A DNA stretch of 64,000 nt from Candidatus Latescibacterota bacterium (GTDB lineage: Bacteria > Latescibacterota > UBA2968 > UBA8231). How positions within the stretch are numbered: the first letter of the stretch is position 1; each line of letters begins with the position of its first letter. The notes beneath the pieces were generated by a model that searched no databases, was not told the DNA's origin, and worked only from the letters and a program-made list of their open reading frames with translations. Shown here in pieces: positions 35,596 through 51,977 of the stretch. The translations under genes and the position numbers were made by a program. The DNA is taken from NCBI GenBank assembly GCA_965261395.1, contig OZ253462.1, forward strand, positions 139,439-203,438, written 5' to 3'.

Positions 35596-35625
35596 GAATT
35601 ATATATTTGACTTCACAAATCCGTT

Positions 35626-35674: not shown

Positions 35675-35701
35675 TTTTCATTTTAGAAAAGGAGTTATGG
35701 G

Positions 35702-35989: not shown

Positions 35990-36297
35990 AGCTAAGTCTC
36001 CATTGGTTTGGGATGGTTCAGGCCAGAATTGCCGTCAACGTAACGGAATCCAGTAGCCCGGATTTGGACGAAATTGCTCAAAATCGAGCGGAATCAGAGA
36101 AAGTAAGGAGAGAATTCCTTAAAATCAATACTTGCTCTGGTTGAAAAATCATTTTATTCTATGGCCGTTCATACTCTTGTAGAGACCCCGTTTAGTCGGG
36201 TCTTCTACCCAATACAACAGCCAGAAAGACCCGGCAACAGGGTAGCTCCCTATTGCCCCGGCGAATAAGTGGAACTTCTCTGATTCTCTACGAGAGT

Positions 36298-36340
36298 GTG
36301 AACAGGCCCGGCCCCTTTAACGGGGGCCATCCCTGTTCAC
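36298..36340 (+). other. strong interrupted hairpin in the 5' leader of the lipoprotein gene
   Basis: gtgaacagg (36298-36306) pairs with cctgttcac (36332-36340), 9 bp. An inner helix pairs ggcccc (36310-15) with ggggcc (36323-28). It ends 20 nt before ATG 36361. No T-run follows. Confidence 0.6.
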
Positions 36341-36360
36341 CTCAACAAAGGAGAATCGCC

Positions 36361-36963: not shown

Positions 36964-37051
36964 AGGAGTTTATGATGGTAAAGCGTGAAGCGATTCCTCA
37001 AGAAGTCCATGAGCAGGCCAACTGTCCACGTTCAAGAGAGGGAGGTAAATC

Positions 37052-37657
37052 TTGTCTTATTTAGTAGGAACTCTCATTGCTGTAATTACAGTATTTGCTT
37101 TTTCGCAGCCTTCAGTTGCCCGTGAAAACGAGTTGGAAAGCTGGTACATGTACTGGGGGTTTGGAGCTTCTGATAATGACCTTTTTGACGATGTAGACCT
37201 AGAGGGTACAGGGGTAAGCCATACCTCCCTGTCTGTGGATTCCTTTGGGTTTTATTGGCCGAGAGGTCAAAAAACACTGGTCGGCGGGGTCATTAATACT
37301 TTTGCCGATTTTTTTGAGGGAAGTGATCTTCTTTCTAGTGCCGAGATTAATTCCTATAACTCGCTTTACTCAATTTCTGCGATGCACTTTCTGTCTCCAA
37401 AGATAGGACAGGGATTTTTTGTGCGAGCGGATGCCGGATTAGCCCTTCACTATGCTGAAGTAAAACTCGATATATTAGGTAATGAAGCAGATTCCGAGTG
37501 GACAAGTGAATGGGGATCGGGGTTTCTGATAGGAGGAGGGTACGGACTTCCGATAACAAGCGGAACGCGATTGCTCCTTAATGCTAATGTCTCTCAGCGG
37601 TATGTTGAGGAGGAATCTATGACCAATGTTGGGATCACACTTAACGGGCTGTTTTAG
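37052..37657 (+). CDS. outer-membrane beta-barrel-like protein
   Basis: 201 aa with the signal peptide LIAVITVFAFSQPSVARE, alternating aromatic/Gly-rich segments and a C-terminal ...GITLNGLF with terminal Phe. Confidence 0.6.
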   Translation: MSYLVGTLIAVITVFAFSQPSVARENELESWYMYWGFGASDNDLFDDVDLEGTGVSHTSLSVDSFGFYWPRGQKTLVGGVINTFADFFEGSDLLSSAEINSYNSLYSISAMHFLSPKIGQGFFVRADAGLALHYAEVKLDILGNEADSEWTSEWGSGFLIGGGYGLPITSGTRLLLNANVSQRYVEEESMTNVGITLNGLF

Positions 37658-37729
37658 CTGGAGTTAAGAGCTAAAGAAGTCGATTTCCACTAAAATGGTG
37701 CCTGTGAGGGTTTCGACCAAGTGATAAGA

Positions 37730-38010
37730 GGTAGGCCGGGGAGACTGTCTGACGAATCGCCTCTTGCAGCCCCCGTGATCGACATTACACAACCCTTAGT
37801 TACGCACCCGTCCGGTCGCGTGCGTCGCGAGGCAGTTCGCCTCCTGCAAGGAGCCTAGCCGCCACACCGGATGCACTCGCACCAAGCCGAACTCCCGGTT
37901 GCCCCAGTGTCGGGGGGCGTCCTCGGTAGCAGCGCTACTGCGGAGGATGGACGCCCGAACCTGCTCCATTTCCCGAGCCAGATTCCCCTTGTATGGGAAC
38001 GAGAGAGGGC
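37730..38010 (+). repeat. island repeat family, copy D (divergent 5'/central part, conserved 3' module)
   Basis: 37918-38010 reads gtcctcggtagcagcgctactgcggaggatggacgcccgaacctgctccatttcccgagccagattccccttgtatgggaacgagagagggc. It matches 49678-49770 and 44325-44404 with scattered substitutions. Confidence 0.65.
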
Positions 38011-38705: not shown

Positions 38706-40178
38706 TCAAGCACCCCCACCTTTCGGTTCCGCCGATTGCGTTGACTGACTTTGCCCGCCCTCTCCAGCTGACATCACTAAGCGGTCCCAGTCGGGAGCGC
38801 TTCCATCTCGCAACAAAGCCAACAGAGTGTCTCGGGCCAACTGCCGACCATCGGACAGCGCTTTCCCAAGGTCAATCCGTTTCCGCCTTGCCCGTGACCC
38901 GTGGACCAAAGCGGAACGCGCACCATAGAAATCCTTGACTTTGCGAAATATCCCTATGCGTTCTTCACCGTTGGTCCCGAGGAGATACCCGGCGCGGGTT
39001 TCCAACTTATAGGTGATCTCTGGTGCGTCCAAGCTGTACATGGTCTCAAGAGCTATGGCGGTATCTAGGATGCGGTCTTCTGTACCGAATCGCCCAACTC
39101 TCGAAGGCAAACCCCCGAGCCGTCGGATGGCAAGGCCAAGCCGATCCCGGTCGTCCTGGTACATTCGCCAAGCCCGAACCATTTCAAGAAAGACTTCTGC
39201 ACTGTCCTCAGAAAAGTGATTCTCACGCCACCAGTCGTTCGCCCACCCCCCACCACTGGTCCACCCGAATTTAACGTTGGGGTCCAGGTCCTCCATCCAT
39301 TTGTCCACCCGCACATACTGCCGCCGCGATATTTGTTGTTCTCCAGTTGCAATACAGAGGAAGTCCCGTACCGTTTCGTGGTCCCTGGGGAATTGGTACG
39401 TGGACGACGGGTCTTCCATGGTTTCTTCCTCAAAGGAGAATCGGAACCGGGTATTTAAGATTTTCTCTGATTCCACCTCCGTCGAGGTAATTGCAGGCCC
39501 CCAGGTCAGTTCTCTGACGAGCGCCGCGATGCTCTCCGGAGCTTCATCCAAGGGATGACGCTGTTCGATGCCCGCTGGAAGGTGCCTAAGATTCAGGAAC
39601 GGGAACTCGCCACAAATCGCTTTAGCCTCTTCGTAGGGAGCCAGGAACGCGCCATCCCCGATGTCAAGGCGGCGATCCAACTTGAGTCCGTAGAATAGAG
39701 TAACCTCGTAAGCCTTGAGATCCCGGGCCTCACCCAGCGTCAGGAATCGGTGTAATGTCTCGGCGGCGTTGCTCCCGTCAGTTTTGATAGCCAGTTTGGT
39801 CAAGCTAAGCGCCAAGGTCTTTAGTTCGACACGAAACGCGCCGTATGGTCTTAGAAAATGAACAGCTTGGCCTTGGCTGGAATGGTCCAACGCCTGGCGT
39901 ATCACCGGATGTTCACATAGGGCTGCCTTCACATCGGCCGGGTCGTCATCAAACCATAGGTGGGATTCTTCGAATGCAACCTCCGCGCCGGGTTCATGTT
40001 GCGCCCTACTTGCCAGGGTGCGGTACTCCTCATATGACACCTGTCCGGTATATCTATGGACCCGTCCGAAATCATCGACTTCCTCATAGGGGACCATTGG
40101 TCTTACCCTTGGGGCCAGAGCCATCAGGCTGGCAGCCAACCCTTCAATCCAGCAACTAAGTTCGAAATCTTGCTTCAT
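38706..40178 (-). CDS. hypothetical protein with a C-terminal HEPN-like domain (Apea-like; Rx4H)
   Basis: 490 aa. The C-terminal ~130 aa read RLGLAIRRLG...EDRILDTAIALETMYSL...EITYKLETRAGYLLG...IFRKVKDFYGARSALVHGS. I verified the RSALVH codons at 38918-38901. GAGGAAGG lies upstream of the ATG. Confidence 0.6.
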   Translation of the reverse strand: MKQDFELSCWIEGLAASLMALAPRVRPMVPYEEVDDFGRVHRYTGQVSYEEYRTLASRAQHEPGAEVAFEESHLWFDDDPADVKAALCEHPVIRQALDHSSQGQAVHFLRPYGAFRVELKTLALSLTKLAIKTDGSNAAETLHRFLTLGEARDLKAYEVTLFYGLKLDRRLDIGDGAFLAPYEEAKAICGEFPFLNLRHLPAGIEQRHPLDEAPESIAALVRELTWGPAITSTEVESEKILNTRFRFSFEEETMEDPSSTYQFPRDHETVRDFLCIATGEQQISRRQYVRVDKWMEDLDPNVKFGWTSGGGWANDWWRENHFSEDSAEVFLEMVRAWRMYQDDRDRLGLAIRRLGGLPSRVGRFGTEDRILDTAIALETMYSLDAPEITYKLETRAGYLLGTNGEERIGIFRKVKDFYGARSALVHGSRARRKRIDLGKALSDGRQLARDTLLALLRDGSAPDWDRLVMSAGEGGQSQSTQSAEPKGGGA

Positions 40179-40442: not shown

Positions 40443-41750
40443 TCACGGAACAGCCATGTAGAACTCCATCAAGTGGGGGAGTAGACTCAGCGCATGGAGG
40501 TGCTCTCCTAGCTGAGAGACGAACACTGACTCAGTATCATCTGGGTCAATGTTGTCAGACGCTACGTGAAACACAATGTTCCGAAAGTATCTAAGCTTGG
40601 GCGGAACGGCTTGCGGTCCCGCAATTCCTTCAATCTCATCGTGTCGTAACTCAGGAAACTCTTCGACAGCCTGGTGGTATATCCTCAGAGGTTCGGCAAG
40701 CAATGCGGTACTCACGCGCACCGGAGCAATCAGGTTTTGAGCCTGCTGATCGGTGATTGAGCTAGTATCCATGACCAATAAATCAAAGGGGCTGTGGGCA
40801 TCCAGTTCAGTCCGGCTTCTGATTGCTCGTAACTTGCTGATGTCGAGTAGATTCACAAACTCATTTGACAGTACCAGAGACCGCATCAGAATTCTCACGC
40901 AGTCCGTCTTAGCCTCCTGAACAAAGGATGGATAGCGTGGCCCATGGCTGACATTGTGCTTTCTGAACAACCCGAGCATATACCATGTTCGCAGGTTAAA
41001 CGGTGTCTGGGTTGATTCATCAGTTGGGGTGTTGTATAAGCCGGGCAATGGACGCGAGAAAACTTCCCACCTCTTATGCAATTTTGAAAGTTTGTCCTTG
41101 TCAGCTGGTCCAGAAGATTTGTTGGCGCGAAGTAACTCTTCGCCGACCAACTCGGATAATGACCATCGGAGCCATGCTGCATACGCATCAATTGCCGACT
41201 GAGCCTTAAACACAGTGGAGTAGTAGTGACCATCTATCCCTCCGCCAGTCTCCATGAAGTTGTCGAGTGCGTCATGGAGATGTATTCGTTTAGCAGGATG
41301 CAACACCTTATCCCTAAGAGTGGTCAGATGTTGAATAGTAGTCTCGTTGGACTGGAACAAGGCTTCGAGGGGATCGAAGAGGAGGGCTGGGTCTCTTCTT
41401 GACTCCCTTCTATAACTCTCCAATTCCGCAGAGAGTAGGCACAAGTACATTTCCCATGGAACCCAAGTCACAAACTCCAATATCCTGCGACTATTTAAGT
41501 CTGGGTCGAGGTCTTGGTCTTGGAACATCAGGTTATATACGGCGTCAATGTCCCTGTCATCGATCAGTTGGGACATGCCTAGATTCTTCATCACACGAGT
41601 TTGGTGGTTGATATTGCGGAATGCAATGACGCGAACACCTTCCAATATGACACTCCGGTGATACTGAAGGTTTCGGTAGTGCTTTATTGCCTCATTCGGC
41701 AAATGGCTTCGCATTTTCTTATAGGCACCCTTATGTTTATCGGTCATCAT
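40443..41750 (-). CDS. hypothetical protein with two Rx4H (HEPN-type) motifs
   Basis: 435 aa. I verified TLRDKVLHP (codons 41315-41298) and YFRNIVFHV (codons 40583-40566) on the sequence. No other family signal recognised. Confidence 0.5.
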   Translation of the reverse strand: MMTDKHKGAYKKMRSHLPNEAIKHYRNLQYHRSVILEGVRVIAFRNINHQTRVMKNLGMSQLIDDRDIDAVYNLMFQDQDLDPDLNSRRILEFVTWVPWEMYLCLLSAELESYRRESRRDPALLFDPLEALFQSNETTIQHLTTLRDKVLHPAKRIHLHDALDNFMETGGGIDGHYYSTVFKAQSAIDAYAAWLRWSLSELVGEELLRANKSSGPADKDKLSKLHKRWEVFSRPLPGLYNTPTDESTQTPFNLRTWYMLGLFRKHNVSHGPRYPSFVQEAKTDCVRILMRSLVLSNEFVNLLDISKLRAIRSRTELDAHSPFDLLVMDTSSITDQQAQNLIAPVRVSTALLAEPLRIYHQAVEEFPELRHDEIEGIAGPQAVPPKLRYFRNIVFHVASDNIDPDDTESVFVSQLGEHLHALSLLPHLMEFYMAVP

Positions 41751-41808: not shown

Positions 41809-41999
41809 ATGTATAGGAAAAATAAGGCCCGATGTCGGTACTATGCAGTTCGCTGAAAACGTACGCAAGGGGCCAGCAGGGTCCCTGATGAATCGCTTGT
41901 CGTCGTCCAGCATCGTTCGGGACTGCTCTCAGTACCGTTGTAAAGGATTTCTGTGCGTTTCAGGGGTCAGCCCGGTACTTGAGGGTGCACTCCTCCGTA
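41809..41999 (+). repeat. island repeat family, copy A (5' and central modules; 3' module missing)
   Basis: It aligns to 49497-49689: atgtatagGaaaaataaggcCccgatGtcggtactatgcaGttcgctgaaaacgtacgcaagggg...caggggtca.. It diverges after tcctccgta, where the IS110-like fragment begins. Confidence 0.8.
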
Positions 42000-42033: not shown

Positions 42034-42219
42034 TCAGGCAGCGAACTCAAACTGCGGCTGAGGCGGGCCCTCGGCGGGGGCACCGCCGGCAGCCTTACCC
42101 CGCATCAGCACATCACGCCGGTCCGTCTTCACCCGCTCCCCACTGCGACGCGAGATCCGACTCGGTGCCACCACCTCGCACCGGTGGCCCGCTTGGCTAC
42201 TTCGGTCGCGCGAAGGCAA
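42034..42219 (-). pseudogene. short fragment resembling the IS110-family (DEDD) transposase N-domain
   Basis: EVVAPSRISRRSGERVKTDRRDVLM contains the KTDRRDA-like signature. Only about 25 residues are similar. Confidence 0.3.
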
Positions 42220-44151
42220 CGAGCGCGGCGTCTGGCCCGGTGCCCGTCGCGATGACGATGAACTGCCGCCCCGACCGCGCCCGGTAGGTCATCGGGTTCG
42301 CGTTCGTTGGAAACGGCGTCGCGCCACGCCAGACCTCGGTGCCCGTCGCCTTGTCGAACGCATATAGGTACGGAGTGCCGCCGCCGAGGAACACGAGGCC
42401 CCCCTTGGTCACCATCGGGCCGGAGTTGCCGCGCGTGCCCAGCCGCTCCGGCAGCTCGACGCCGCGCAGCAGCGGGTGATTGCGGATCTCGGGGCTGCCC
42501 TCACCGAACGGTATCTTCCACGCAATCTCGCCAGCATCGAGGTCAATAGCCACTAGGTGCGCGTACGGCGGCTTGATGAGCGGAATCGGGCCGAGCTTGC
42601 TCTCCGGGGTTTGCGCGGTGCCCGGTCCGTCGGCCTCCCGAAACATGAGGAGCGACGCACCCCATAGGGACAGTTGTTGCTGTACTCGACGTCGACTTCC
42701 GGGTCGTTGCCCGCATTCTCGCACAACTGGTTCGTGTCGGCGTCTTCCGATGTCCGAACGTACAGCAGCCCGGTCTCGGGATCAAAGGCCGCCCCGCCCC
42801 AGTTCGCGCCGCCGCTGGCGCCCGGGCGCTGGAGCGTCCCCTGAAGACTCGGCGGCGTGAAGAGCGGACCCAGCCGGAACCGCTGCATCTCCTCCACCGC
42901 GAGCGCGTGGATCTCCGGCGTCAGATCGTTCGCGTCCTCCAGCGACACCCCCTGCCTGCTGAAAGGCGGCGGCTTGGTCGGGAACGGCTGCGTCGGATAC
43001 AGCACCTCGCCCGGCACGTCCGTCGTCGTGTCCACCGCACGCTCCTCGATTGGCCACACCGGCTCGCCCGTCACCCGGTCGAACACGTACGTGAAGCCGT
43101 GCTTGGAAACCTGCGCCACCGCGTCGATCTCGCGCCCGTCCACCGTTACCGTCACGAGGTTCGGCGCTGCGGACAGGTCGTAGTCCCACACGCCGTGATG
43201 CACCGCTTGGAAGTGCCACTGCCGCTCACCCGTGCGCACGTCGAGGCACACCAGCGACTCGGCGAAGAGGTTCGCCCCCACCCGGCGGCCACCCCAGTAG
43301 TCGCTGCTCGGCGTGCTCGTCGGCACGTACAGCAGCCCGCGCTCGGCGTCGAGCGATATCAGCCCCCACACGTTGGCGTGGCCGGTGTAGCGCCACGACT
43401 CGTCCTCATAGGTGTCCGCGCCGAAGTCGTCGCTCGATTGCGGGATGGTGAAGAAGACCCAGCGGCGCTCGCCCGTGCGGGCGTCGAACGCCTGCACGGT
43501 TCCGGGGGTGTCGAACTTTCGCTGCAGCCGGTCAGGCACGCGGCTTCCCACGATCACTAGGTCCTCGAACACCACCGGCGGCGAGGTCTGGTCGAACTCG
43601 TGGCGGGTCACCGGGCGGCCATGGCCCTCGGTCAGCACAACGCTCCCGCTCTCGCCGAAGTCCGTGTCTAGCTCGCCGGTCGCGGCATCGATTGCGTACA
43701 GCCGGTCGCGGCTGTTGAGGAAAACGCGGTCGTCGTCGCCGTCGCTCCAGTAGGCGATACCCCGGTGCTTGAAGCCCCTCGGCCCCACACCCTTGGGCCC
43801 ACCTTCGTAGGCCTTGGGATCAAAGGTCCACAGTTCGGCACCCGTCTCCGCGTCGAGAGCCACCACACGCGTGTACATGGTGGAGAGGTAGAGGACGTTG
43901 CCGATCATGATGGGCGTTGCCTGGAATGGGCCCGGCCGGATGCCGTACTCCGCGAGGGGCATCTCGTTCGGCTCCCATTGCCAGACGATCTCCAGTTCGT
44001 CGACATTCGCGGCCGTGATCTCCTCAGCCGCCGAGTACTTAGTGGGCGCCTGCTCGGCACCGACGTACGGCCATTCAATCATGACGCCCGATTCCTGGGC
44101 GCCTGCGAGGGTGGTAAACAAGAGGGCGGCTGTCGCAACGAATCGCTTCAT
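42197..44151 (-). pseudogene. PQQ-dependent dehydrogenase (secreted beta-propeller), disrupted by a 1-nt frameshift
   Basis: The start is MKRFVATAALLFTTLAGAQE at 44151. ORF 42553..44268 carries the N-terminal ~530 aa and ORF 42197..42724 the C-terminal ...LIKPPYAHLVAIDLDAGEIAWKIPFG...RQFIVIATG. Adding one G to the GGGG run (+ strand cccc, 42659-42662) joins them as ...EYSNNCPYGGASLLMFREADGPG... Confidence 0.75.
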
Positions 44152-44191
44152 GGAGGGGAATCCGATTGGAGAATGGAAACTAGTTTCGCGG

Positions 44192-44227
44192 CGTATTCTA
44201 CGTATTCTAGGTATTCTACGTATTCTA
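44192..44227. repeat. 9-bp tandem repeat x4 (cgtattcta / ggtattcta)
   Basis: Copies lie at 44192-44200, 44201-44209, 44210-44218 (g variant) and 44219-44227. The array sits 41 nt upstream of the PQQ-DH start and directly abuts repeat copy B. Confidence 0.9.
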
Positions 44228-44404
44228 GATATCATGGGTCGGCAATATGCAGTTCGCTGAAAACGCACGCAAGGGTCCAGCAGGGTCTCTGATGAATCGC
44301 TTGTCGTCGCACAGAATCGTTCGGGCTACTGCGGAGGGTGGATGCCTGAACCTGCGCCATTTTCCTAGCCAGATTCCCCTTGCCTGGGGACGAGAGAATG
44401 CCCC
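44228..44404 (+). repeat. island repeat family, copy B (5' and 3' modules; central ~85 nt absent)
   Basis: ...tcggcaatatgcagttcgctgaaaacgcacgcaagggtccagcagggtctctgatgaatcgcttgtcgtcgcacagaatcgttcggg is joined directly to ctactgcggagggtggatgcctgaacctgcgccattttcctagccagattccccttgcctggggacgagagaatgcccc. Confidence 0.8.
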
Positions 44405-44707: not shown

Positions 44708-44736
44708 TTGACAATCAGCCGTAAACACCGTAAGCT
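44708..44736 (+). promoter_or_regulatory. sigma70-like promoter TTGACA-17 nt-TAAGCT, probably giving a leaderless XRE mRNA
   Basis: TTGACA lies at 44708-44713 and TAAGCT at 44731-44736. ATG 44743 follows 6 nt later and there is no SD sequence. The palindrome gtaagcttac (44730-44739) overlaps the -10. Confidence 0.4.
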
Positions 44737-44742
44737 TACAAC

Positions 44743-45087
44743 ATGTCCAAGACGTTGGGTGAGCGTATTCGCGAGCTGCGTGATCAGGCAGATCTCTCCC
44801 TACGCGACCTGTCAAAGAGGACCGGTGGCCTGACGGCTGCTTTCCTTTCGGATATTGAGCTGGGGCGACGTTTTCCCTCAGATGATGCCCTTGTCCGTTT
44901 GGCCAAGGCGTTGGGGACGACAGTCGAGGATCTTCGAACCTACGACACGCGTCCGCCAGTACAAGAGATCAAGCGGTTATCCGCGCAGAATCCCGCAATC
45001 GGTGCGGCTTTTCGTAAGATCACCGAGATGACGCCGGAAGAGATACTGAAGATGGTTGAGAAATCGACAAGAAAGAAAAAAAAGTGA
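44743..45087 (+). CDS. XRE-family helix-turn-helix regulator (CapH-like)
   Basis: 114 aa with the HTH_3 pattern LGERIRELRDQADLSLRDLSKRTGGLTAAFLSDIELGRRFPS and a basic C-terminal tail. Confidence 0.85.
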   Translation: MSKTLGERIRELRDQADLSLRDLSKRTGGLTAAFLSDIELGRRFPSDDALVRLAKALGTTVEDLRTYDTRPPVQEIKRLSAQNPAIGAAFRKITEMTPEEILKMVEKSTRKKKK

Positions 45088-45779
45088 GGAGTCTACGCGC
45101 GGATTCGGGTCCCTTCACGGAGAAGCCATTCTTCACCGAGAGCGAGATCGAACGAATGTGCGAGTGTGCCCTCCGCGAAGCAGGATATTACCCTTCCGAA
45201 CCGTCGCGGGTGAACATCGACCGGTTTATCGAGAAGCACTTTGATGTTTCGCCACAGTTCGAGGATCTTCCGGAAGGAGTTCTCGGTTACTCTTGCTTCG
45301 GCGGCGATGGAATGATCAGCATGCACATTACGACGGCACTTACAAACGCGGGAACGCGAGTAGCCGAACGTCGCGTGAACACGACCCTAGCGCACGAGGC
45401 AGGTCACGGGCTGTTTCACTCATATCTCTTCAGCCTTGCTGAAGCCGGGTTAGAGCTTTTTGAGTCTGATCCCGATGTGACAAAGACTAGGATCCTCTGC
45501 CGCGATGAGAATACGCAACGGCAGAAGGTCAACGGGCGATGGTGGGAGACTCAGGCAAATATGGCGATCGGTCCCCTGCTGATGCCAAGATCACTTGTCG
45601 TGGAAGTGGTTAAGCCATTTCTTGTCTCTACAGGCCTCTTGGGAATCGGGGATGTGCCTGAAGATAAGCGCGAGAATGTGGTCGCGACGCTCTCCGACGT
45701 TTTCGACGTTAACCCTGTCGTGGCGCGTATTCGATTGGAGGGAATTTTCAAGCCCTCGGGGGGGCAGCTGTCGCTCTGA
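45084..45779 (+). CDS. ImmA/IrrE-family zinc metallopeptidase (CapP-like)
   Basis: 231 aa. The HEXXH motif is in TLAHEAGHGLFH (H104 codon 45393-45395). It shares a GTGA overlap with the XRE gene. Confidence 0.8.
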   Translation: MRSLRADSGPFTEKPFFTESEIERMCECALREAGYYPSEPSRVNIDRFIEKHFDVSPQFEDLPEGVLGYSCFGGDGMISMHITTALTNAGTRVAERRVNTTLAHEAGHGLFHSYLFSLAEAGLELFESDPDVTKTRILCRDENTQRQKVNGRWWETQANMAIGPLLMPRSLVVEVVKPFLVSTGLLGIGDVPEDKRENVVATLSDVFDVNPVVARIRLEGIFKPSGGQLSL

Positions 45780-45808
45780 TTTTTTTTGGATAAGATGTAA
45801 TCATTGTC

Positions 45809-45822
45809 AGCTTACATAAGCT
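45809..45822. promoter_or_regulatory. inverted repeat AGCTTA-ca-TAAGCT, candidate operator upstream of the Ubl operon
   Basis: agcttacataagct uses the same TAAGCT/AGCTTA half-sites as the palindrome at 44730-44739. Confidence 0.35.
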
Positions 45823-45883: not shown

Positions 45884-45952
45884 ATGGAAAAAATTTTGAC
45901 TTACCTTCGATATGGGAACCAACCGATGTCCATCAGAAAGGAAACCAACTGA
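45884..45952 (+). CDS. possible 22-codon leader ORF coupled to the Ubl gene
   Basis: AAAGGAG (45872-45878) is followed 5 nt later by the ATG at 45884. The peptide is MEKILTYLRYGNQPMSIRKETN. Stop TGA 45950-45952 overlaps the Ubl ATG 45952 (TGATG). Confidence 0.3.
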   Translation: MEKILTYLRYGNQPMSIRKETN

Positions 45953-46218
45953 TGTCCACCCCAAAGAAGATTTCAATCACCGTAGTCGTCAACGGCCAGC
46001 CAACTGTGGTCGATGCCAGCCAAGATGAACCCCTCGGTACGATTATTCCTGATGCGTTGCGTCAGACAGAGAACTCGGGCCAGCCACCAGAGAATTGGGA
46101 GCTCCGCGGTGCCGATGGGACGCTTCTTGACCTAGACAAGAAGATCGAGGACTACGGCTTCCCATCCAAGGTCCGCCTGTTCCTGAATCTCAAGGCGGGG
46201 GTTGGAGGCCATGGTTAA
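45952..46218 (+). CDS. ubiquitin-like beta-grasp protein (BilA-like), C-terminus ...GVGG-HG
   Basis: The 88-aa sequence is MSTPKKISITVVVNGQPTVVDASQDEPLGTIIPDALRQTENSGQPPENWELRGADGTLLDLDKKIEDYGFPSKVRLFLNLKAGVGGHG. The size, the alternating beta pattern, the Gly-Gly near the C-terminus and first position in an E2/JAB/E1 operon support the call. Confidence 0.7.
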   Translation: MSTPKKISITVVVNGQPTVVDASQDEPLGTIIPDALRQTENSGQPPENWELRGADGTLLDLDKKIEDYGFPSKVRLFLNLKAGVGGHG

Positions 46219-46816
46219 CGCGACCGAACAGCATGTAGACCCCGAGGTATCCCGTACCAAGTTCGATCGCGAGATTACCGAGTACCTTTCCCTTGAGGCT
46301 GACTACCGCGCCCGGGGCTGGTTTCTTGTGAAGGCGGACTGGCCTGTGGCAGTCGTTGTTCTGGCCTCGAATAAGACCAGCCCGCCGGCGATTGTGACCG
46401 CCGTCCAGTTCGACTATACGAACTATGACGCCGAGCCGCCCTCAGTTCGCATGACTGATCCGTTCTCCGGCCGATTTCTTCTAAGCAAGGAGCTCCCCAC
46501 CCGCCTCCTTCGCGCGATCCCCGGACCGGAGATGCCCCTACCGAACGGCACCAAGGTGCAGCAGGTATCGGTGCAGGAGCTGATGCAGGCTCACTCTCCG
46601 GAAGACCAACCCTTCCTCTGCGTAGCCGGGGTCAAGGAATATCACGACCACCCTGGCCATTCCGGTGACCAGTGGGAAATACACCGGTCCGCTGGCGAAG
46701 GTCGGATGGTTCGCCTGTTGGAGGTGATTTCCAAGTACGGCCTCGAACCGGTGCAGGGGTTCAACGTCAACCTCGTACCGCAAGTTACCTTCACTGTCTC
46801 GGAGCCTCCCCAGTGA
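46211..46816 (+). CDS. E2-like ubiquitin-conjugating enzyme homologue (BilB-like)
   Basis: About 201 aa from ATG 46211 (open from 46202). The candidate catalytic Cys is in QPFLCVAGVKEYHDHPGH (codon 46619-46621). Its position between the Ubl and JAB genes supports the call. The start overlaps the Ubl stop (ATGGTTAA). Confidence 0.6.
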   Translation: MVNATEQHVDPEVSRTKFDREITEYLSLEADYRARGWFLVKADWPVAVVVLASNKTSPPAIVTAVQFDYTNYDAEPPSVRMTDPFSGRFLLSKELPTRLLRAIPGPEMPLPNGTKVQQVSVQELMQAHSPEDQPFLCVAGVKEYHDHPGHSGDQWEIHRSAGEGRMVRLLEVISKYGLEPVQGFNVNLVPQVTFTVSEPPQ

Positions 46817-47304
46817 CCCTACGAGGCGTGCGGCGTTTTCGAATCCAGGCGAGTGCCATACGCGAAACCATGGAGGCGATTCGGTCTGCAGGACAGGATG
46901 GCTACGAGTTGTTCGTAGTATGGTCGGGTACGCGTGATGACGACATCTTCACCGTCGCCAAGGTGCATATCCCTAAACAAACCTCCTACAAACTCGATGC
47001 CGGACTCTGCGTACGAGTTGACGGTCCTGAGCTCCATCGCTTGAACATGTGGCTCTACGAGGCACAGCAGGCCATAGGAGTGCAGGTCCACGGTCATCCA
47101 GCCGATGCCTATCACTCGGAAACCGACGACACCTACCCGATCGCCACAATGCACGGAAGCCTATCCATCGTCCTTCCCTTCTTCGGCCACGACGGCTGGG
47201 AGTCAAGTGATATCGCGGCCTATCGTCTCGGGCAAGACGGATGGGTCGAACTAACCGGCCCCTTGAGTGACCTGATAGAGGTTGTTGACAATGGCGTTAG
47301 CTGA
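46813..47304 (+). CDS. JAB/MPN+ metalloisopeptidase (BilC-like)
   Basis: GTG 46813 overlaps the E2 stop (GTGA). 163 aa with the Glu in GYELFVVWSG and the motif HGHPADAYHSETD, which is HxH...SxxD (47089-47127). Confidence 0.8.
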   Translation: MTLRGVRRFRIQASAIRETMEAIRSAGQDGYELFVVWSGTRDDDIFTVAKVHIPKQTSYKLDAGLCVRVDGPELHRLNMWLYEAQQAIGVQVHGHPADAYHSETDDTYPIATMHGSLSIVLPFFGHDGWESSDIAAYRLGQDGWVELTGPLSDLIEVVDNGVS

Positions 47305-48796
47305 CTATTTCCCTCGCGACGCGGTCGCCATCTCGCAAGTGCTCCAGGGGTTTCAACGCGACGCCTTCATCGAAAAGCTCGAGGGTGTCCGAGTGGCAAT
47401 CGCCTTCGGCGAGGAGGCGGCTACCAGCCGCGACGGGCGCGAACTCCTTGATCTCTCTGTCAGGCTAGCGGCTCGCTTGTACCCGAGCCTGACGTTTGCC
47501 ACCGTTCCTGCCGGAGATCGGTTCGCCGATGAACTGATGGCGTTGGCCAGTAGCATCAACCCTAACATCGAAGCGTCTAAGACGGGTACTGCTAATGTTG
47601 GTCTCTCGATCGGCGGGGATGCACCGGCCCTAAACGCACCAACCGTATATGCTGGCTGCGATGGCTGGCTGGCCAAGGTGGGAACTGAGGGCCCATACAT
47701 GACCAGCGACCTAGGGAACCCCTTTGGAGCCGGCTTCGCCGCCTGCTTGGCGGCAGCCAACTTGTTTCGCTTCCTCTTCCTCCCCAACGGCACAACTTTG
47801 CTGGATACCGACATTAGTTTCCCTCCCGACGACGCCTCTTTCCCCAGTCTTGCGGCGTCCACACTGGCGGATCCCCTGGTGTTGGTCGGCGTTGGGGCGG
47901 TCGGCAACAGTGCCTCCTGGGCCCTATCGCGTACGCCGCTCACCGGCCAGATTTACCTAGTCGATCCACAAGTCGTCGAACTTAGCAATCTCCAGCGCTA
48001 CGTTCTTGGTGCACGGAGCGACGAAGGCGGCATCAAAGTTGATGTCGCTGCGAAGGAGTTTCGCGCCGCGCTACAGGCGCTTTCTCATCATGGAACATGG
48101 GCTTCCTTCCTCTGCGCCAATGGCTACAAGTGGGAACGCGTTCTAGTTGCCCTCGACTCCGCCCATGACAGGCGAGCCGTACAAGGGAGCCTGCCACGTT
48201 GGATCGCTAACGCATGGACCCAAATAGGCGATCTCGGCGTGTCCTCTCACTCTTTCTTGGGTCAAGACGCCTGTCTTGCCTGCCTTTACTTGCCAACCGA
48301 GAAATCCAAGAGCGAAGACCAGATCGTCGCTGAAGGCCTTAAGATCCCTCAATTCCAGGATCCGGTTCGCTTTCTGCTCGGAAGCGGGCAGGCGACCGGC
48401 AAGGAGCTCTGTGACGCGGTTGCTGCCGCTTGGGGCATCCCGGCCGAGACACTGGAGCCTTATATAGGTAGGTCGATACGTGAACTTTGGGTGGAGGGCA
48501 TCTGTGGCGGCGGTATCATTCCTCTCGGAGAAGCCGGACCTACTCCGGGAGACCGGCAAGTTCCGCTTGCTTTCCAATCGGCTCTTGCCGGTATGCTGCT
48601 GGCCGCGGAAACGGTACGCGACGTGTTGACCGACGGTGCTCAACGCAAGACCCTCATGCGCCGGCTTGATGTCTTGCGCCCCTTAGGCGATCCTTCACCC
48701 CAACCGGCGCTCAAGGCCGGAACGGGTAGCTGTATCTGTGAGGATCGCGATTTTATTACTACCTATCGAACAAAGTATGGAGCAGAAACTGGCTGA
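47291..48796 (+). CDS. E1-like ThiF-family adenylating enzyme (BilD-like)
   Basis: About 501 aa. An N-terminal degenerate domain precedes the active Rossmann domain, which has LVLVGVGAVGNSASWAL, VDPQVVELSNLQRYV, LDSAHDRR and DACLACLY. It overlaps the JAB gene by 14 nt. Confidence 0.8.
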   Translation: MALADYFPRDAVAISQVLQGFQRDAFIEKLEGVRVAIAFGEEAATSRDGRELLDLSVRLAARLYPSLTFATVPAGDRFADELMALASSINPNIEASKTGTANVGLSIGGDAPALNAPTVYAGCDGWLAKVGTEGPYMTSDLGNPFGAGFAACLAAANLFRFLFLPNGTTLLDTDISFPPDDASFPSLAASTLADPLVLVGVGAVGNSASWALSRTPLTGQIYLVDPQVVELSNLQRYVLGARSDEGGIKVDVAAKEFRAALQALSHHGTWASFLCANGYKWERVLVALDSAHDRRAVQGSLPRWIANAWTQIGDLGVSSHSFLGQDACLACLYLPTEKSKSEDQIVAEGLKIPQFQDPVRFLLGSGQATGKELCDAVAAAWGIPAETLEPYIGRSIRELWVEGICGGGIIPLGEAGPTPGDRQVPLAFQSALAGMLLAAETVRDVLTDGAQRKTLMRRLDVLRPLGDPSPQPALKAGTGSCICEDRDFITTYRTKYGAETG

Positions 48797-48812
48797 CTTT
48801 GATGGCTGATTG

Positions 48813-48838
48813 GAGCGGGTTAGCTGATCGACCCGCTC
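48813..48838. terminator. hairpin between convergent genes (possible bidirectional terminator)
   Basis: gagcgggt (48813-48820) pairs with acccgctc (48831-48838) around a 10-nt loop. There is no clear U-tract. Confidence 0.35.
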
Positions 48839-48851
48839 TAGGCATCGAGTC

Positions 48852-49184
48852 CTACGCCTCAACAAGCCAATCCTCACACGGTTTATACCCTTCATTCACC
48901 GCATCCTGATAGTAAGATGTGAGGCCAGAGACGGCCCTATTAAGGGCATGCGCAGGATCATCGGCGCACGGAAGGCTGGTCCGGTAGGCATCCACCTGCC
49001 TAGGCGTATGAATCACATGGCTGACCTCAAAGGTTGTCTTTTCGCTGCTCATAAATCTACAAAGTCTTATGGTGATGTGAGTCTTAAGATCTCCAAGCCG
49101 GATGACGAACCTTCCTAGGTCATCATCTCGTTCAAGTACGGTGATGAGATCCTGGTCCAAGACGTTATCAAAGGTGTAAGGCAT
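48852..49184 (-). CDS. hypothetical protein, convergent with the Ubl operon
   Basis: A 110-aa ORF with GAGGAGG 6 nt upstream of ATG 49184. No family recognised. Confidence 0.55.
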   Translation of the reverse strand: MPYTFDNVLDQDLITVLERDDDLGRFVIRLGDLKTHITIRLCRFMSSEKTTFEVSHVIHTPRQVDAYRTSLPCADDPAHALNRAVSGLTSYYQDAVNEGYKPCEDWLVEA

Positions 49185-49496: not shown

Positions 49497-49770
49497 ATGT
49501 ATAGAAAAAATAAGGCACCGATATCGGTACTATGCAATTCGCTGAAAACGTACGCAAGGGGTCAGCAGGGTCCCTGATGAGTCGCTTGGTCGTCGCACCG
49601 AATCGTTCGGGAATGCTCAGAGCACCGTTGTAAAGGATTTCGGCGCGTTTCAGGGGTCAACCTAGTACTTCCCCCCGTCCTCCGTAGCAGCGCTACTGCG
49701 GAGGGTGGACGCCCGAACCTGCGCCATTACCCGAGCCAGATTCCCCTTGCTTGGAAACGAGAGAACGCCC
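49497..49770 (+). repeat. island repeat family, copy C (complete: 5', central and 3' modules)
   Basis: It contains all segments shared with copies A (41809-41999), B (44228-44404) and D (3' module). It ends 74 nt before the katG ATG. Confidence 0.8.
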
Positions 49771-49784
49771 TTTATTATTTCTAA

Positions 49785-51977
<2,193 letters not shown>

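What the first reader, a model, noticed from the sequence alone, without database searches (positions are those of the whole stretch)
45952..48796. Four-gene ubiquitin-like conjugation operon (Ubl-E2-JAB-E1) with Bil-type architecture in a mobile island
Four consecutive + strand genes have overlapping start and stop codons (ATGGTTAA, GTGA, 14-nt overlap). The first encodes an 88-aa beta-grasp-sized protein ending ...LKAGVGGHG. The second encodes a ~200-aa protein with one conspicuous Cys (QPFLCVAGVKEYHDHPGH). The third is a 163-aa JAB/MPN+ protein (Glu in YELF; HGHPADAYHSETD). The fourth is a ~500-aa ThiF/E1-like enzyme (GVGAVGN, ELSNLQRY, DSAHDRR, CLAC). Domain content and order equal BilA-BilB-BilC-BilD of bacterial ISG15-like antiphage systems, in the single-Ubl form. 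They also match the Ubl/E2/E1/JAB operons predicted by comparative genomics (Iyer, Burroughs, Aravind). The Ubl and E2 assignments rest on size, position and short motifs only. The proteins could therefore belong to a divergent or uncharacterised subtype. The operon lies in a mosaic island next to other defence-like genes.
Basis: partly seen in the sequence, partly recalled or inferred. Interest (0 to 1): 0.85.

Follow-up and report, generated by a model that had tools for sequence, protein, structure and literature searches.

The report
CapH/CapP-regulated Type II BilABCD operon
These four genes are a clear new member of an already characterised bacterial ubiquitin-like tagging system (Type II BilABCD), here wired to a DNA-damage-responsive switch that appears to have been taken from a different immune system, so the find is correct but largely ordinary.

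Summary
Four overlapping + strand genes at 45952-48796 encode a Ubl, an E2, a JAB peptidase and an E1. Each is a full-length homologue of the crystallised Ensifer aridi Type II BilA/B/C/D proteins (E 7e-25 to 3.5e-106; 38-57% identity), and every experimentally defined catalytic residue is conserved. Pfam gives the diagnostic 'CEHH/6C' set: DUF2604, Metal_CEHH, and Prok-E2_C+ThiF. The operon is therefore a member of a published, structurally and biochemically characterised family, not a divergent subtype.

The two upstream genes are a CapH/CapP repressor-protease pair, a known accessory in about 15% of Type II Bil operons.

What is particular to this locus is its history:
- The capH-capP-promoter block is 82-84% DNA-identical to blocks that precede Type II CBASS operons. 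It ends just after the fossil CD-NTase start codon, leaving a 22-codon uORF that abuts bilA.
- Ten close relatives of the bil core (76-93% DNA identity, at least five phyla, one plasmid-like contig) lack CapH/CapP. Nine of them carry a winged-helix fifth gene, and all ten carry a palindromic operator. The window has lost both, through a clean ~0.8-kb deletion and promoter replacement.

The bil genes are under purifying selection. The biological target of Type II Bil is still unknown. The claim of 'other defence-like genes' nearby is unproven.

The parts
44708..44739 (+). Candidate capH promoter/operator: TTGACA (44708-44713), a 17-nt spacer, then TAAGCT (44731-44736) inside the perfect palindrome GTAAGCTTAC (44730-44739). 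The capH ATG lies only 3 nt after the palindrome, so the mRNA may be leaderless.
   Evidence: Read directly from the sequence. TAAGCTTA is unique in the 64-kb window. The layout (TTGAC..., then GTAAGC-N3-GTAxGCTkAC just before the ATG) is conserved in L013 and L014. The consensus promoter scan did not call it. Inference only.
44743..45087 (+). capH: 114-aa XRE-type HTH repressor. The HTH spans residues 5-65. A C-terminal helical region contains F90-R91, a possible counterpart of the E. coli CapH F82|R83 cleavage site.
   Evidence: Pfam HTH_31 1.9e-13 and HTH_3 7.9e-12. PADLOC capH 8.7e-15 over residues 1-107. PDB: DdrO-type XRE repressors 3.7e-08 to 2.4e-06, and entry 7T5U 8e-04. The cleavage-site parallel comes and is a pattern match only.
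45084..45779 (+). capP-like Zn-metallopeptidase, 231 aa, GTGA overlap with capH. HEAGH at residues 104-108 (nt 45393-45407). C139 and E155 are invariant in the family. It is short, with no full GAF domain evident.
   Evidence: PADLOC capP 4.5e-07. Pfam Peptidase_M78 only 0.1, below its cutoff. No PDB sequence hit. AlphaFold model pLDDT 84.3; the top Foldseek hits are Thauera CapP 7T5T and Deinococcus PprI 8SLM/8SLN (E 3-5e-04, TM 0.40-0.49). The closest homologues (82-84%) sit with an HTH gene directly upstream of Type II CBASS operons. dN/dS 0.13-0.21.
45808..45822 (+). Candidate CapH operator in the capP-bilA intergenic region: the inverted repeat CAGCTTA-CA-TAAGCT.
   Evidence: Unique in the window; 0 of 100 shuffles reach the observed count. 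It is conserved exactly as CAGCTTACATAAGCTG at the same position in CBASS loci L011 and L012. It shares the TAAGCT half-site with the capH-proximal palindrome. Binding is not tested.
45884..45952 (+). 22-codon uORF (MEKILTYLRYGNQPMSIRKETN*). Its RBS and ATGGAAAA start are the fossil of the CD-NTase gene start of the CBASS-type donor. Its TGA overlaps the bilA ATG (TGATG). The recombination joint lies at 45893-45902.
   Evidence: Homology to L011/L012 ends at 45891/45892, which is their CD-NTase ATGGAAAA(G/A). Homology to the nearest Bil relative L015 starts at 45903. ORF coordinates.
45952..46218 (+). bilA: 88-aa single beta-grasp Ubl (DUF2604). The reactive Gly is predicted to be G86 (codon 46207-46209), so the mature C-terminus is ...KAGVGG, followed by a 2-residue tail (HG) that BilC would remove.
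   Evidence: Pfam DUF2604 9.9e-28. PDB 8TYX_A/8TYZ_B BilA 6.7e-25, 56.8% identity over 81 gapless columns, with G86 aligned to E. aridi G97. The GG + 2-residue tail is conserved in relatives, and three relatives fuse BilA in frame to BilB. Processing at G97 is shown experimentally for E. aridi.
46211..46816 (+). bilB: 201-aa E2 of the CEHH type. Catalytic Cys137 (46619-46621), E143, H145, H150. There is a variable loop (about residues 95-120) before the Cys.
   Evidence: Pfam Metal_CEHH 2.3e-55, full-length. PDB 8TYZ_C E2(BilB) 1.4e-49, 45.5% over 187 residues. The motif C-x5-E-x-H-x4-H is at residue 137. The only strongly variable stretch among relatives is the pre-Cys loop, which the paper proposes as the target-recognition loop.
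46813..47304 (+). bilC: 163-aa JAB/JAMM deubiquitinase-type peptidase. E32, H93-x-H95, S102, D105.
   Evidence: PDB 8TYX_B DUB(BilC) 2e-31, 37.9% over 145 residues. PADLOC BilC 7.3e-10. Residue positions. E. aridi E33 and D106 were shown to be catalytic.
47291..48796 (+). bilD: 501-aa E1 with an inactive adenylation domain (Pfam 'Prok-E2_C'), an active adenylation domain and an inserted CYS domain. Key residues: R9; GxGxxG at 200-205; R236 in NLQRY; Zn ligands C328/C331 and C481/C483; catalytic C405 (48503-48505). The last 2 codons and the stop derive from the 3' end of a deleted fifth gene.
   Evidence: PDB 8TYZ_A E1(BilD) 3.5e-106, residues 1-497 aligned to 1-507, 43.4% identity. Pfam Prok-E2_C 4.8e-22 and ThiF 6.7e-10. 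Residues map onto E. aridi R9, R246, C340/C343, C417 and C491/C493.
48785..48796 (+). Deletion scar. Relative to the nearest relative L015, about 815 bp (the bilD tail plus the whole fifth gene) are missing, joined at a GAAGC microhomology. The BilD C-terminal 13 residues are replaced by TG.
   Evidence: blastn: window 45964-48787 matches L015 700-3529, and window 48785-49460 matches L015 4344-4995. End-point sequences and BilD C-termini. No remnant of the fifth gene anywhere in the window.
48795..48851 (.). Stable hairpin between the convergent bilD and orf110 (core stem 48812-48839). A likely terminator, though it has no U-tract.
   Evidence: MFE -29.1 kcal/mol, z -3.76, 0 of 200 shuffles fold as well. 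Conserved in L015.
44238..44397 (.). Left boundary of the capHP-bil cassette: a partial diverged copy (parts A+C) of the ~270-nt block that lies upstream of katG.
49497..49764 (.). Right boundary: the full A+B+C block immediately upstream of katG (49809).
   Evidence: Part C is shared with the katG upstream region in L003.

Best explanation
The locus is a Type II BilABCD (CEHH/6C) ubiquitin-like conjugation operon under a CapH/CapP switch.

Mechanism for the conjugation core, taken from the E. aridi homologue. Homology is shown here; activity is inferred.
1. BilC, a JAMM peptidase, trims the 2-residue tail of BilA to expose Gly86.
2. BilD adenylates that glycine in its active adenylation domain, with Arg9 of the inactive domain and Arg236 contributing.
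3. BilD takes BilA as a thioester on Cys405 of its mobile CYS domain and passes it to Cys137 of BilB.
4. BilB transfers BilA to lysines of target proteins without an E3. Its variable pre-Cys loop probably chooses the target.
5. BilC can also reverse the conjugates.

Regulation (inferred). CapH represses its own promoter and the bil promoter at TAAGCT-containing palindromes. Single-stranded DNA produced by DNA damage or phage replication activates CapP, which cleaves CapH and derepresses the operon.

Biological role (inferred, least certain). Anti-phage defence by tagging a phage structural protein, as shown for Type I Bil.

History (shown by DNA comparison). A capH-capP-promoter module of the kind that normally drives Type II CBASS was joined to a horizontally mobile bilABCD core. 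That core's usual winged-helix fifth gene and palindromic operator were lost.
For: Identity of the four proteins:
- Full-length matches to the solved BilA/B/C/D chains, with identities of 56.8, 45.5, 37.9 and 43.4%.
- Pfam DUF2604, Metal_CEHH, and Prok-E2_C+ThiF.
- All catalytic and Zn residues conserved, matched against the residues defined experimentally.
- Gene order and overlaps as in the published family.

Functionality:
- Intact ORFs, with dN/dS of 0.04-0.52 against four relatives.

CapH/CapP:
- PADLOC capH 8.7e-15 and capP 4.5e-07.
- The CapP model's top structural hits are CapP 7T5T and PprI.
- The nearest homologues sit in front of Type II CBASS, an HNH-SAVED operon and a Bub-type operon.
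- The paper reports that 15% of Type II Bil operons have CapH/CapP.

Chimera:
- 82-84% DNA identity to CBASS loci from capH to 45892.
- 76-93% identity to Bil relatives from 45903-45952 (varying by locus) to about 48787.
- A clean deletion of the fifth gene relative to L015.
- The relatives' operator palindrome is absent.

Mobility of the core:
- 75-92% BilD identity across Spirochaetia, Chloroflexota, Latescibacterota, Gemmatimonadetes and Vicinamibacterales MAGs.
- One plasmid-like contig with RepA and MobA/MobL.
Against: - No experiment has been done on this locus.
- For Type II Bil, the literature at hand states that targets and biological consequences are unknown. Anti-phage function therefore rests on analogy with Type I Bil, on defence-island context and on CapH/CapP linkage.
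- The CapP-like protein is atypical. It is 231 aa, its Pfam M78 hit is below the cutoff, it has no PDB sequence hit, its Foldseek TM is only 0.40-0.49, and only about 50 residues follow the HTH-like linker. The ssDNA-sensing groove between the peptidase and GAF domains may therefore differ.
- The promoters and operators are pattern-level inferences, and the consensus promoter scan found none.
- The BilD C-terminal tail is truncated by the deletion, with unknown effect.
- The 22-codon uORF could dampen or couple bilA translation.
- The assembly is metagenomic, although a second assembly shows the same gene map.
Confidence: 0.85

Rival explanations
1. It is a sulfur-carrier pair (MoaD/ThiS-like protein activated by a MoeB/ThiF adenylyltransferase) for cofactor biosynthesis, not a protein-conjugation system.
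For: BilD contains a ThiF-family adenylation domain (Pfam ThiF 6.7e-10). NCBIfam lists MoeB and ThiF models.
Against: The NCBIfam MoeB/ThiF hits score 27.7-29.2 bits over about 60 residues, against cutoffs of 266-449 bits. The whole 501-aa protein aligns to E1(BilD) at 359 bits. An E2 with its catalytic Cys and a JAMM peptidase are encoded in the same overlapping operon. According to the paper, the BilA homologue is structurally closer to ubiquitin/SUMO than to ThiS/MoaD. No molybdopterin or thiamine genes are adjacent.
Confidence: 0.01
2. It is a Type I Bil (ISG15-like) system of the kind shown to tag phage central tail fibres.
For: Same gene order. PADLOC's Bil models hit BilB (1.3e-05), BilC (7.3e-10) and BilD (4.4e-15).
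Against: The PADLOC hits are weak and partial, and BilA has none. The Type II-specific profiles and structures score far higher: Metal_CEHH 187 bits against PADLOC BilB 23 bits, and 8TYZ_A 359 bits against PADLOC BilD 53 bits. BilA has one beta-grasp domain, not two. E143 and H145, which are conserved only in Type II, are present.
Confidence: 0.02
3. The operon is a decaying remnant. It lost its native regulator and promoter, carries a truncated E1 tail and a stray uORF, and is no longer functional.
For: Deletion of the fifth gene and of 13 C-terminal BilD residues, plus replacement of the native operator. Fragmentary BilD pseudogenes do exist in another genome, L008/L009. A neighbouring PQQ dehydrogenase is split.
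Against: All four ORFs are intact, with every catalytic residue present. dN/dS is 0.04-0.52. The E2-binding helix and the Zn site of BilD are retained up to residue 497. The characterised E. aridi system works with four genes and no fifth gene. L017 also lacks the fifth gene. The lost regulation is replaced by an intact CapH/CapP module that is itself under purifying selection.
Confidence: 0.07
4. It is an active Type II Bil system whose role is a DNA-damage or stress response that modifies host proteins, rather than anti-phage defence.
For: [quoted passage not shown] The authors themselves state that Type II Bil targets are unknown and that these pathways may be stress-response pathways. E. 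aridi Bil conjugates E. coli proteins non-specifically. No phage or viral contig carries a close relative. katG, an oxidative-stress gene, lies within about 5 kb of bil in three loci.
Against: Type II Bil operons are reported near CRISPR and other immune systems. The closest mechanistic relative, Type I Bil, is a proven anti-phage system. The regulator module here is otherwise attached to CBASS and similar defence operons. Rapid cross-phylum transfer and a variable E2 loop fit an arms-race gene.
Confidence: 0.25

Closest known systems
Type II BilABCD (CEHH/6C operon) of Ensifer aridi TW10 (PDB 8TYX, 8TYY, 8TYZ, 8TZ0; Chambers et al., bioRxiv 10.1101/2023.09.26.559546)
   Same: - Same four proteins in the same order with overlapping genes.
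- Full-length homology of each protein (38-57% identity).
- A single beta-grasp BilA with a conserved Gly followed by a short tail.
- The CEHH motif in BilB and the JAMM residues in BilC.
- IAD-AAD-CYS architecture, Arg finger, catalytic Cys and Cys4 Zn site in BilD.
- CapH/CapP association is reported for 15% of the family.
   Different: - It belongs to a separate subclade: only 40-43% BilD identity to rhizobial plasmid copies, but 75-92% to soil-MAG copies from several phyla.
- The BilA tail is HG rather than A.
- The BilD C-terminus is shortened by a deletion.
- The promoter/regulator block is of CBASS type and carries a fossil start codon.
- No biochemistry exists for this copy.
Type I BilABCD (ISG15-like) of Collimonas sp. 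OK412 (Hör et al., bioRxiv 10.1101/2023.09.04.556158)
   Same: Ubl-E2-JAB-E1 order, no E3, and the same catalytic logic. It is the only Bil system with a demonstrated anti-phage mechanism (tail-fibre tagging).
   Different: - Type I BilA has two beta-grasp domains.
- The proteins fall in a distinct sequence group (weak PADLOC hits only).
[quoted passage not shown]
CapH/CapP regulator of Type II CBASS (E. coli MS115-1, Thauera sp. K11; PDB 7T5T; Lau et al., bioRxiv 10.1101/2022.04.27.489752) and Deinococcus DdrO/IrrE(PprI)
   Same: - An XRE HTH repressor gene overlapping a downstream HExxH metallopeptidase gene, placed upstream of an immune operon.
- Top structural matches of the peptidase model are CapP and PprI.
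- The nearest sequence relatives sit in front of Type II CBASS.
- A Phe-Arg dipeptide in the CapH C-terminal region resembles the mapped cleavage site.
   Different: - The peptidase is short (231 aa, against 278 aa for the Thauera chain) and appears to lack a complete GAF domain.
- It fails the Pfam M78 threshold.
- The possible Cys switch (invariant C139) is spaced differently from C114 of E. coli CapP.
- It drives Bil, not CBASS.
Type II CBASS Cap2/Cap3 and Bub operons (other bacterial E1/E2/JAB conjugation systems)
   Same: ThiF-type E1 chemistry, JAB peptidase partner, defence-island context, and shared CapH/CapP regulators.
   Different: - CBASS has an E2-E1 fusion that conjugates a CD-NTase, plus an effector. 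None of these is present here, apart from the fossil CD-NTase start codon.
- Bub operons use Ubl-E2 or E2-E1 fusions and a DUF6527 protease.

Membership tests
Type II BilABCD (CEHH/6C) | Four genes in the order Ubl - CEHH/E2 - JAB DUB - multidomain E1 | tested here: met
   ORFs at 45952-46218, 46211-46816, 46813-47304 and 47291-48796 overlap one another.
Type II BilABCD (CEHH/6C) | BilA: a beta-grasp Ubl with a universally conserved Gly followed by up to nine non-conserved residues | tested here: met
   DUF2604 9.9e-28. An 81-column gapless alignment to crystallised BilA places G86 on G97. The tail is HG; relatives have HA, GG or NG tails, or a fusion to BilB.
Type II BilABCD (CEHH/6C) | BilB: E2 fold with the CEHH motif (E. 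aridi C138, E144, H146, H151). E and the first H are Type II-specific. | tested here: met
   Metal_CEHH 2.3e-55. 8TYZ_C 1.4e-49. C137, E143, H145 and H150 are present.
Type II BilABCD (CEHH/6C) | BilC: JAB/JAMM peptidase with a catalytic Glu (E33) and Asp (D106) and the HxH Zn site | tested here: met
   8TYX_B 2e-31. E32, H93, H95, S102 and D105 are present. The Pfam Prok-JAB hit is only 0.13, so the assignment rests on the structure-backed homologue.
Type II BilABCD (CEHH/6C) | BilD: N-terminal inactive adenylation domain (Pfam Prok-E2_C), an active adenylation domain and an inserted CYS domain. Key residues R9, R246, C417, and Zn ligands C340/C343/C491/C493. | tested here: met
   Prok-E2_C 4.8e-22 and ThiF 6.7e-10. 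8TYZ_A 3.5e-106 over residues 1-497. R9, R236, C405, C328/C331 and C481/C483 are present.
Type II BilABCD (CEHH/6C) | Proteins group with Type II rather than Type I Bil | tested here: met
   Tested by comparing scores, not by building a tree. Type II models and structures give 187 and 359 bits; PADLOC Bil models give 23 and 53 bits, and none for BilA.
Type II BilABCD (CEHH/6C) | E1/E2-dependent isopeptide conjugation of BilA, and BilC processing and deconjugation | not testable with these tools
   Shown only for the E. aridi homologue.
Type II BilABCD (CEHH/6C) | Anti-phage activity | not testable with these tools
   Not demonstrated for Type II in the papers read. Targets are stated to be 'thus far unknown'.
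CapH/CapP regulator pair | A small XRE HTH repressor gene next to an HExxH metallopeptidase gene, upstream of an immune operon | tested here: met
   PADLOC capH 8.7e-15 and capP 4.5e-07. GTGA gene overlap and HEAGH at residues 104-108.
CapH/CapP regulator pair | CapP three-domain fold: peptidase, HTH-like linker and C-terminal GAF domain | tested here: inconclusive
   The model (pLDDT 84) has CapP 7T5T and PprI 8SLM/8SLN as its best matches, but TM is 0.40-0.49. Only two short strands and two helices follow the linker, too few for a full GAF domain.
CapH/CapP regulator pair | Recurrent association with CBASS and other defence operons | tested here: met
   Homologues at 82-84% identity precede SMODS-ThiF-JAB-SAVED operons. 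One at 63% precedes an HNH-SAVED operon. One at 58% precedes a Multi_ubiq/Prok-E2_E/JAB-ThiF/BubE operon.
CapH/CapP regulator pair | ssDNA-stimulated cleavage of CapH (E. coli site F82|R83) and derepression | not testable with these tools
   F90-R91 is present in the CapH C-terminal region. This is only a pattern parallel.
Type I Bil (ISG15-like) | BilA with two beta-grasp domains | tested here: not met
   BilA is 88 aa with one DUF2604 domain.
MoeB/ThiF - MoaD/ThiS sulfur-carrier systems | The E1-like protein reaches the family score. It is a homodimeric single-domain adenylyltransferase with no E2 or DUB partner. | tested here: not met
   27.7-29.2 bits against cutoffs of 266-449 bits. A tandem IAD+AAD architecture, plus E2 and JAB genes in the operon.
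Type II CBASS | A CD-NTase, a Cap2 E2-E1 fusion, Cap3 and an effector | tested here: not met
   There is no SMODS/CD-NTase or effector gene. Only the RBS and the first ~3 codons of a CD-NTase gene survive, at 45884-45892. PADLOC E1-E2 hits are local and weak.

The most novel reading that the evidence does not exclude
The locus records a natural regulator swap between two immune systems. [quoted passage not shown] In this genome both were lost. They were replaced by a CapH/CapP-promoter cassette lifted from in front of a Type II CBASS operon. The cut falls three codons into the CD-NTase gene, and the fossil start now heads a uORF that is translationally coupled to bilA.

If true, this shows that CapH/CapP plus its promoter is a self-contained, portable 'DNA-damage switch' that recombines between defence operons. 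It also identifies the fifth gene as a candidate new dedicated Bil regulator or sensor.
Probability: 0.6. Interest if true: 0.5.

Novelty: new member of a known kind. Interest (0 to 1): 0.35.

Why it matters
The system itself has already been described structurally and biochemically, so the window adds a member rather than a mechanism. Its value is comparative, in three respects.
1. It extends Type II Bil, which was catalogued mainly in Rhizobiaceae, to a highly mobile soil subclade shared at 75-92% protein identity by at least five phyla and one plasmid-like element.
2. It gives a base-pair-resolved example of a CapH/CapP-promoter module moving from CBASS to Bil. This supports the idea that defence regulators are exchangeable cassettes.
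3. By contrast with its relatives, it points to an unstudied fifth gene and operator that may be the native control of this subclade.

The open question for the whole family is what Type II Bil tags and whether it stops phage. This locus does not make that question more testable than the existing model systems do.

Tried and rejected
- Sulfur-carrier (MoeB/ThiF) reading: rejected on scores and operon content.
- Type I Bil and CBASS Cap2/Cap3 readings: rejected.
- RNA explanation for the junction repeat: no tRNA or tmRNA, and no Rfam family at gathering threshold or at E ≤ 1. A CUGAUGAG string in the repeat was considered as a hammerhead core and dropped, because the rest of the core is absent and Rfam is silent.
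- Repeat as a widespread element: one exact-pattern scan of JGI metagenome contigs found nothing.
- Phage or viral carriage of this Bil clade: none in the INPHARED phages or in IMG/VR.
- 'Defence-like neighbours': orf490 and orf435 have no Pfam or PADLOC hits. They are not co-located elsewhere. The orf490 model has no PDB match with E < 1. The HEPN idea rests only on an invariant R-x4-H motif and Foldseek hits with probability below 0.3, so it is not accepted.
- Remnant of the relatives' fifth gene in the window: none.
- Consensus sigma-70 promoter scan over 44.2-49.4 kb: no call, so the promoter proposals are weak.
- The two structure-prediction jobs were not spent on BilA or BilB, because full-length homology to crystal structures already settles their folds.
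- The organism was not identified. The source is an unnamed metagenome assembly.

Full report
**1. Observation.**
The four + strand ORFs are present exactly as described. They are bilA 45952-46218 (88 aa), bilB 46211-46816 (201 aa from the ATG), bilC 46813-47304 (GTG start, 163 aa) and bilD 47291-48796 (501 aa). The overlaps are 8, 4 and 14 nt. An independent assembly of the same locus has the same gene calls.

**2. What the four proteins are.**
Profile searches give a specific set rather than generic domains:
- BilA is Pfam DUF2604 (9.9e-28).
- BilB is Metal_CEHH (2.3e-55, full length).
- BilD is Prok-E2_C (4.8e-22) plus ThiF (6.7e-10).
- BilC gives only a sub-threshold Prok-JAB hit.

A sequence search of the PDB is decisive. 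Each protein's best hit, over its whole length, is the corresponding chain of the Ensifer aridi Type II BilABCD structures:

| Protein | PDB chain | E-value | Identity |
|---|---|---|---|
| BilA | 8TYX_A | 6.7e-25 | 56.8% |
| BilB | 8TYZ_C | 1.4e-49 | 45.5% |
| BilC | 8TYX_B | 2e-31 | 37.9% |
| BilD | 8TYZ_A | 3.5e-106 | 43.4% |

The source paper explains the Pfam names. The 'CEHH' protein is a diverged E2. The 'Prok-E2_C' domain is in fact an inactive adenylation domain. The operon family that Iyer/Burroughs/Aravind called 6C was renamed Type II BilABCD.

**3. Residue-level test.**
Every residue that the paper shows or proposes to be catalytic is conserved:
- BilA Gly86 aligns with Gly97 and is followed by a 2-residue tail.
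- BilB has C137/E143/H145/H150, equivalent to C138/E144/H146/H151.
- BilC has E32, H93-x-H95, S102 and D105, with E32 and D105 equivalent to E33 and D106.
- BilD has R9, R236 (equivalent to R246), the Zn ligands C328/C331/C481/C483, and the catalytic C405 (equivalent to C417).

E143 and H145 are Type II-specific according to the paper. PADLOC's Bil models hit only weakly (BilB 1.3e-05, BilC 7.3e-10, BilD 4.4e-15, BilA none). NCBIfam MoeB/ThiF models reach 27.7-29.2 bits against cutoffs of 266-449. The Type I Bil, sulfur-carrier and CBASS-Cap2 readings are therefore rejected, and membership in Type II Bil is met on every sequence-testable criterion.

**4. Upstream genes.**
The gene at 44743-45087 encodes an XRE HTH protein (PADLOC capH 8.7e-15; PDB neighbours are DdrO-type repressors). 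The gene at 45084-45779 overlaps it (GTGA) and encodes an HEAGH metallopeptidase.

The CapP call was weak by sequence alone: PADLOC 4.5e-07, Pfam M78 0.1, and no PDB hit. I tested it in two further ways.
- An AlphaFold model built from 54 homologues (pLDDT 84.3) has Thauera CapP (7T5T) and Deinococcus PprI (8SLM, 8SLN) as its three best PDB matches. The TM-scores are only 0.40-0.49, and the C-terminal part is too short for a full GAF domain.
- Its closest homologues (82-84% identity) lie, each behind a small HTH gene, immediately upstream of SMODS-ThiF-JAB-SAVED operons, which are Type II CBASS. More distant homologues precede an HNH-SAVED operon and a Bub-type conjugation operon.

This is the behaviour that defines CapH/CapP. 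The Bil paper reports CapH/CapP next to 15% of Type II Bil operons.

**5. The locus is a chimera.**
- DNA identity of 82-84% to the CBASS loci L011 and L012 runs from capH through capP and the whole intergenic region. It stops at 45891/45892, which is the ATGGAAAA start of their CD-NTase gene.
- Identity to Bil relatives starts at 45903 for the nearest relative L015, and at 45920-45952 for the others. It ends at about 48787.
- Only about 10 nt lie between the two homology tracts.
- The fossil start codon opens a 22-codon ORF (45884-45952) whose TGA overlaps the bilA ATG.

Ten close relatives of the bil core were examined. They show 75-92% BilD identity and include MAGs labelled Spirochaetia, Chloroflexota, Latescibacterota, Dehalococcoidia and Gemmatimonadetes, plus a plasmid-like contig with RepA and MobA/MobL.
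- None has this capH/capP.
- Nine of the ten have a conserved fifth gene directly after bilD, of about 230-265 aa. All six copies that were scanned give sub-threshold MarR/winged-helix hits at the same C-terminal position.
- All ten have an inverted repeat, TTCACT-N6/7-AGTGAA, overlapping a -35-like hexamer upstream of bilA.

The window has neither the fifth gene nor the repeat. Relative to L015 (92.6% DNA identity), about 815 bp are cleanly missing between two GAAGC microhomologies. The deletion removes the fifth gene and replaces the last 13 BilD residues with two. Homology resumes at once and continues through the convergent orf110, which is 89% identical. The simplest reading is a regulator swap.

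**6. Is it functional?**
All ORFs are intact. Pairwise dN/dS against four relatives is 0.04-0.52 for the bil genes and 0.13-0.21 for capP. The BilD region that binds the E2 and the Zn ion in E. aridi (residues 490-504) is retained, because the alignment runs to residue 497 of 501. The only strongly variable stretch of BilB among relatives is the loop before the catalytic Cys, which the paper proposes as the substrate-recognition element. In three relatives BilA is fused in frame to BilB, which fits obligatory BilC cleavage after the Gly-Gly. A stable hairpin follows bilD (-29.1 kcal/mol, z -3.76).

**7. Regulation (inferred).**
Two palindromes that share TAAGCT are unique in the 64-kb window.
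- GTAAGCTTAC (44730-44739) overlaps a -10-like hexamer 17 nt after a perfect TTGACA, and lies 3 nt before the capH ATG.
- CAGCTTACATAAGCT (45808-45822) lies in the capP-bilA spacer and is conserved exactly in the CBASS loci.

They are the natural candidates for CapH operators. The consensus promoter scan called nothing, so this remains a hypothesis.

**8. Context.**
The capHP-bil cassette (GC 0.54-0.59) sits between partial copies of a ~270-nt block whose full copy lies directly upstream of katG. Further copies bracket two other segments of very different GC (0.44-0.67), against 0.61-0.62 in the flanks. This supports 'mosaic'. However, I found no integrase or transposase in the parts of the island I scanned, and the repeat has no RNA-family or metagenome match.

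orf490 and orf435 belong to small, unannotated, metagenome-only families. They are not linked elsewhere and give no Pfam, PADLOC or PDB-fold assignment.

**9. Comparison and novelty.**
The system works like, and is a member of, Type II BilABCD. Its regulator works like CapH/CapP, and membership there is met except for an inconclusive GAF domain.

Three things are not known for any Type II Bil: the target, the physiological trigger, and whether it blocks phage. Particular to this locus are the resolved CBASS-to-Bil regulator transfer, the loss of the subclade's fifth gene and operator, and the placement in a widely transferred soil subclade far from the rhizobial model (40-43% identity to plasmid copies).

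**10. Verdict.**
The novelty rating is 'new member of a known kind', and interest is modest at 0.35. The most novel reading still open is the regulator-swap and portable-switch story, together with the uncharacterised fifth gene of the relatives.

Noticed in passing
window 35577-35596, 37918-38006, 41809-41980, 44238-44397, 49497-49764: A ~270-nt block directly upstream of katG recurs as partial, 74-92% identical copies at the boundaries of four segments with very different GC (0.44, 0.54, 0.67, 0.54-0.59). It looks like serial insertions at one site, or a modular intergenic repeat. It has no tRNA, Rfam or JGI-metagenome match. A piece also lies upstream of the bil operon in L015.
   Followed up: partly
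L001 9518-10285, L002 9552-10253, L003 9454-10251, L004 9618-10328, L005 9537-10229, L006 9536-10231, L007 9534-10256, L015 3633-4355, L016 7602-8303: [quoted passage not shown] It has no PADLOC or PDB match. It was not mentioned in the Bil papers read, and it is absent from the window.
   Followed up: partly
about 60-100 nt upstream of bilA in L001-L007 and L015-L017: A conserved inverted repeat, TTCACT-N6/7-AGTGAA, overlaps a -35-like TTGAC/TTGCC followed by a -10-like hexamer. It is probably the native promoter/operator of this Bil subclade, and the window has lost it.
   Followed up: partly
L005 6411-7526, L006 6663-7526, L016 4663-5526; L015 445-954: BilA is fused in frame to BilB in three relatives. 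BilA has two tandem Ubl domains in L005 and L015. Two-domain BilA was reported as under 1% of catalogued Type II Bil operons.
   Followed up: no
L003 14261-16417, L006 2-1888, window 49809-51977: katG (catalase-peroxidase) lies within about 5 kb of the bil operon in three loci labelled as different phyla (73-84% KatG identity). This could be coincidence, a shared flexible region or co-transfer; I cannot tell which.
   Followed up: no
window 38706-40178 (-): orf490 belongs to a 51-member, metagenome-only family with no Pfam or PADLOC hit. Its model is confident (pLDDT 84) but has no PDB match with E < 1. The family has an invariant R421-x4-H426 motif in a C-terminal helical domain, and there are weak HEPN-like fold hits (probability below 0.3). 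Homologues sit near transposases and a SIR2-kinase gene. It may be a new HEPN-type protein, but this is not established.
   Followed up: partly
window 40443-41750 (-): orf435 is an unannotated family (154 representatives at 50% clustering) with no Pfam or PADLOC hit. It is not found next to the orf490 homologues in the two other loci examined.
   Followed up: partly
window 42197-44268 (-): A PQQ-dependent dehydrogenase is split into two overlapping ORFs, probably by a frameshift or as a pseudogene. It lies in a GC 0.67 segment bracketed by the junction repeats.
   Followed up: no
window 48852-49184 (-): orf110 is convergent with bilD and 89% identical to a gene at the same position in L015, but it is absent from the other relatives. 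It has no family hit, and dN/dS is 0.76.
   Followed up: partly
window 45926-45952; L015 and L003 upstream of bilA: A short duplication of the bilA start region (ATGTCCA...AAGGAxACCAAyyGATG) creates an 8-codon mini-ORF in the window and L015 that ends in TGATG on the bilA start codon; in L003 the duplicated ATG is out of frame and no such ORF forms. It may be a translational-coupling leader.
   Followed up: no
L008 8001-8930 and L009 8001-8316: Two separate BilD fragments (81-84% identity) occur in one Vicinamibacterales MAG. This suggests decayed copies of the same mobile operon.
   Followed up: no
L013 6660-9248; L014 5041-10297: More distant CapH/CapP pairs are followed by a DUF2188 gene and then either an HNH-SAVED operon or a Multi_ubiq / Prok-E2_E / JAB-ThiF / BubE operon next to a phage-type integrase. 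This shows the same regulator family on several conjugation-type systems.
   Followed up: no
window 35597-37917: A very low-GC (0.44) segment carries two ORFs (36253-36963 and 37052-37657) with no Pfam hit. One has only a marginal PADLOC CARF hit (E 0.0077).
   Followed up: no
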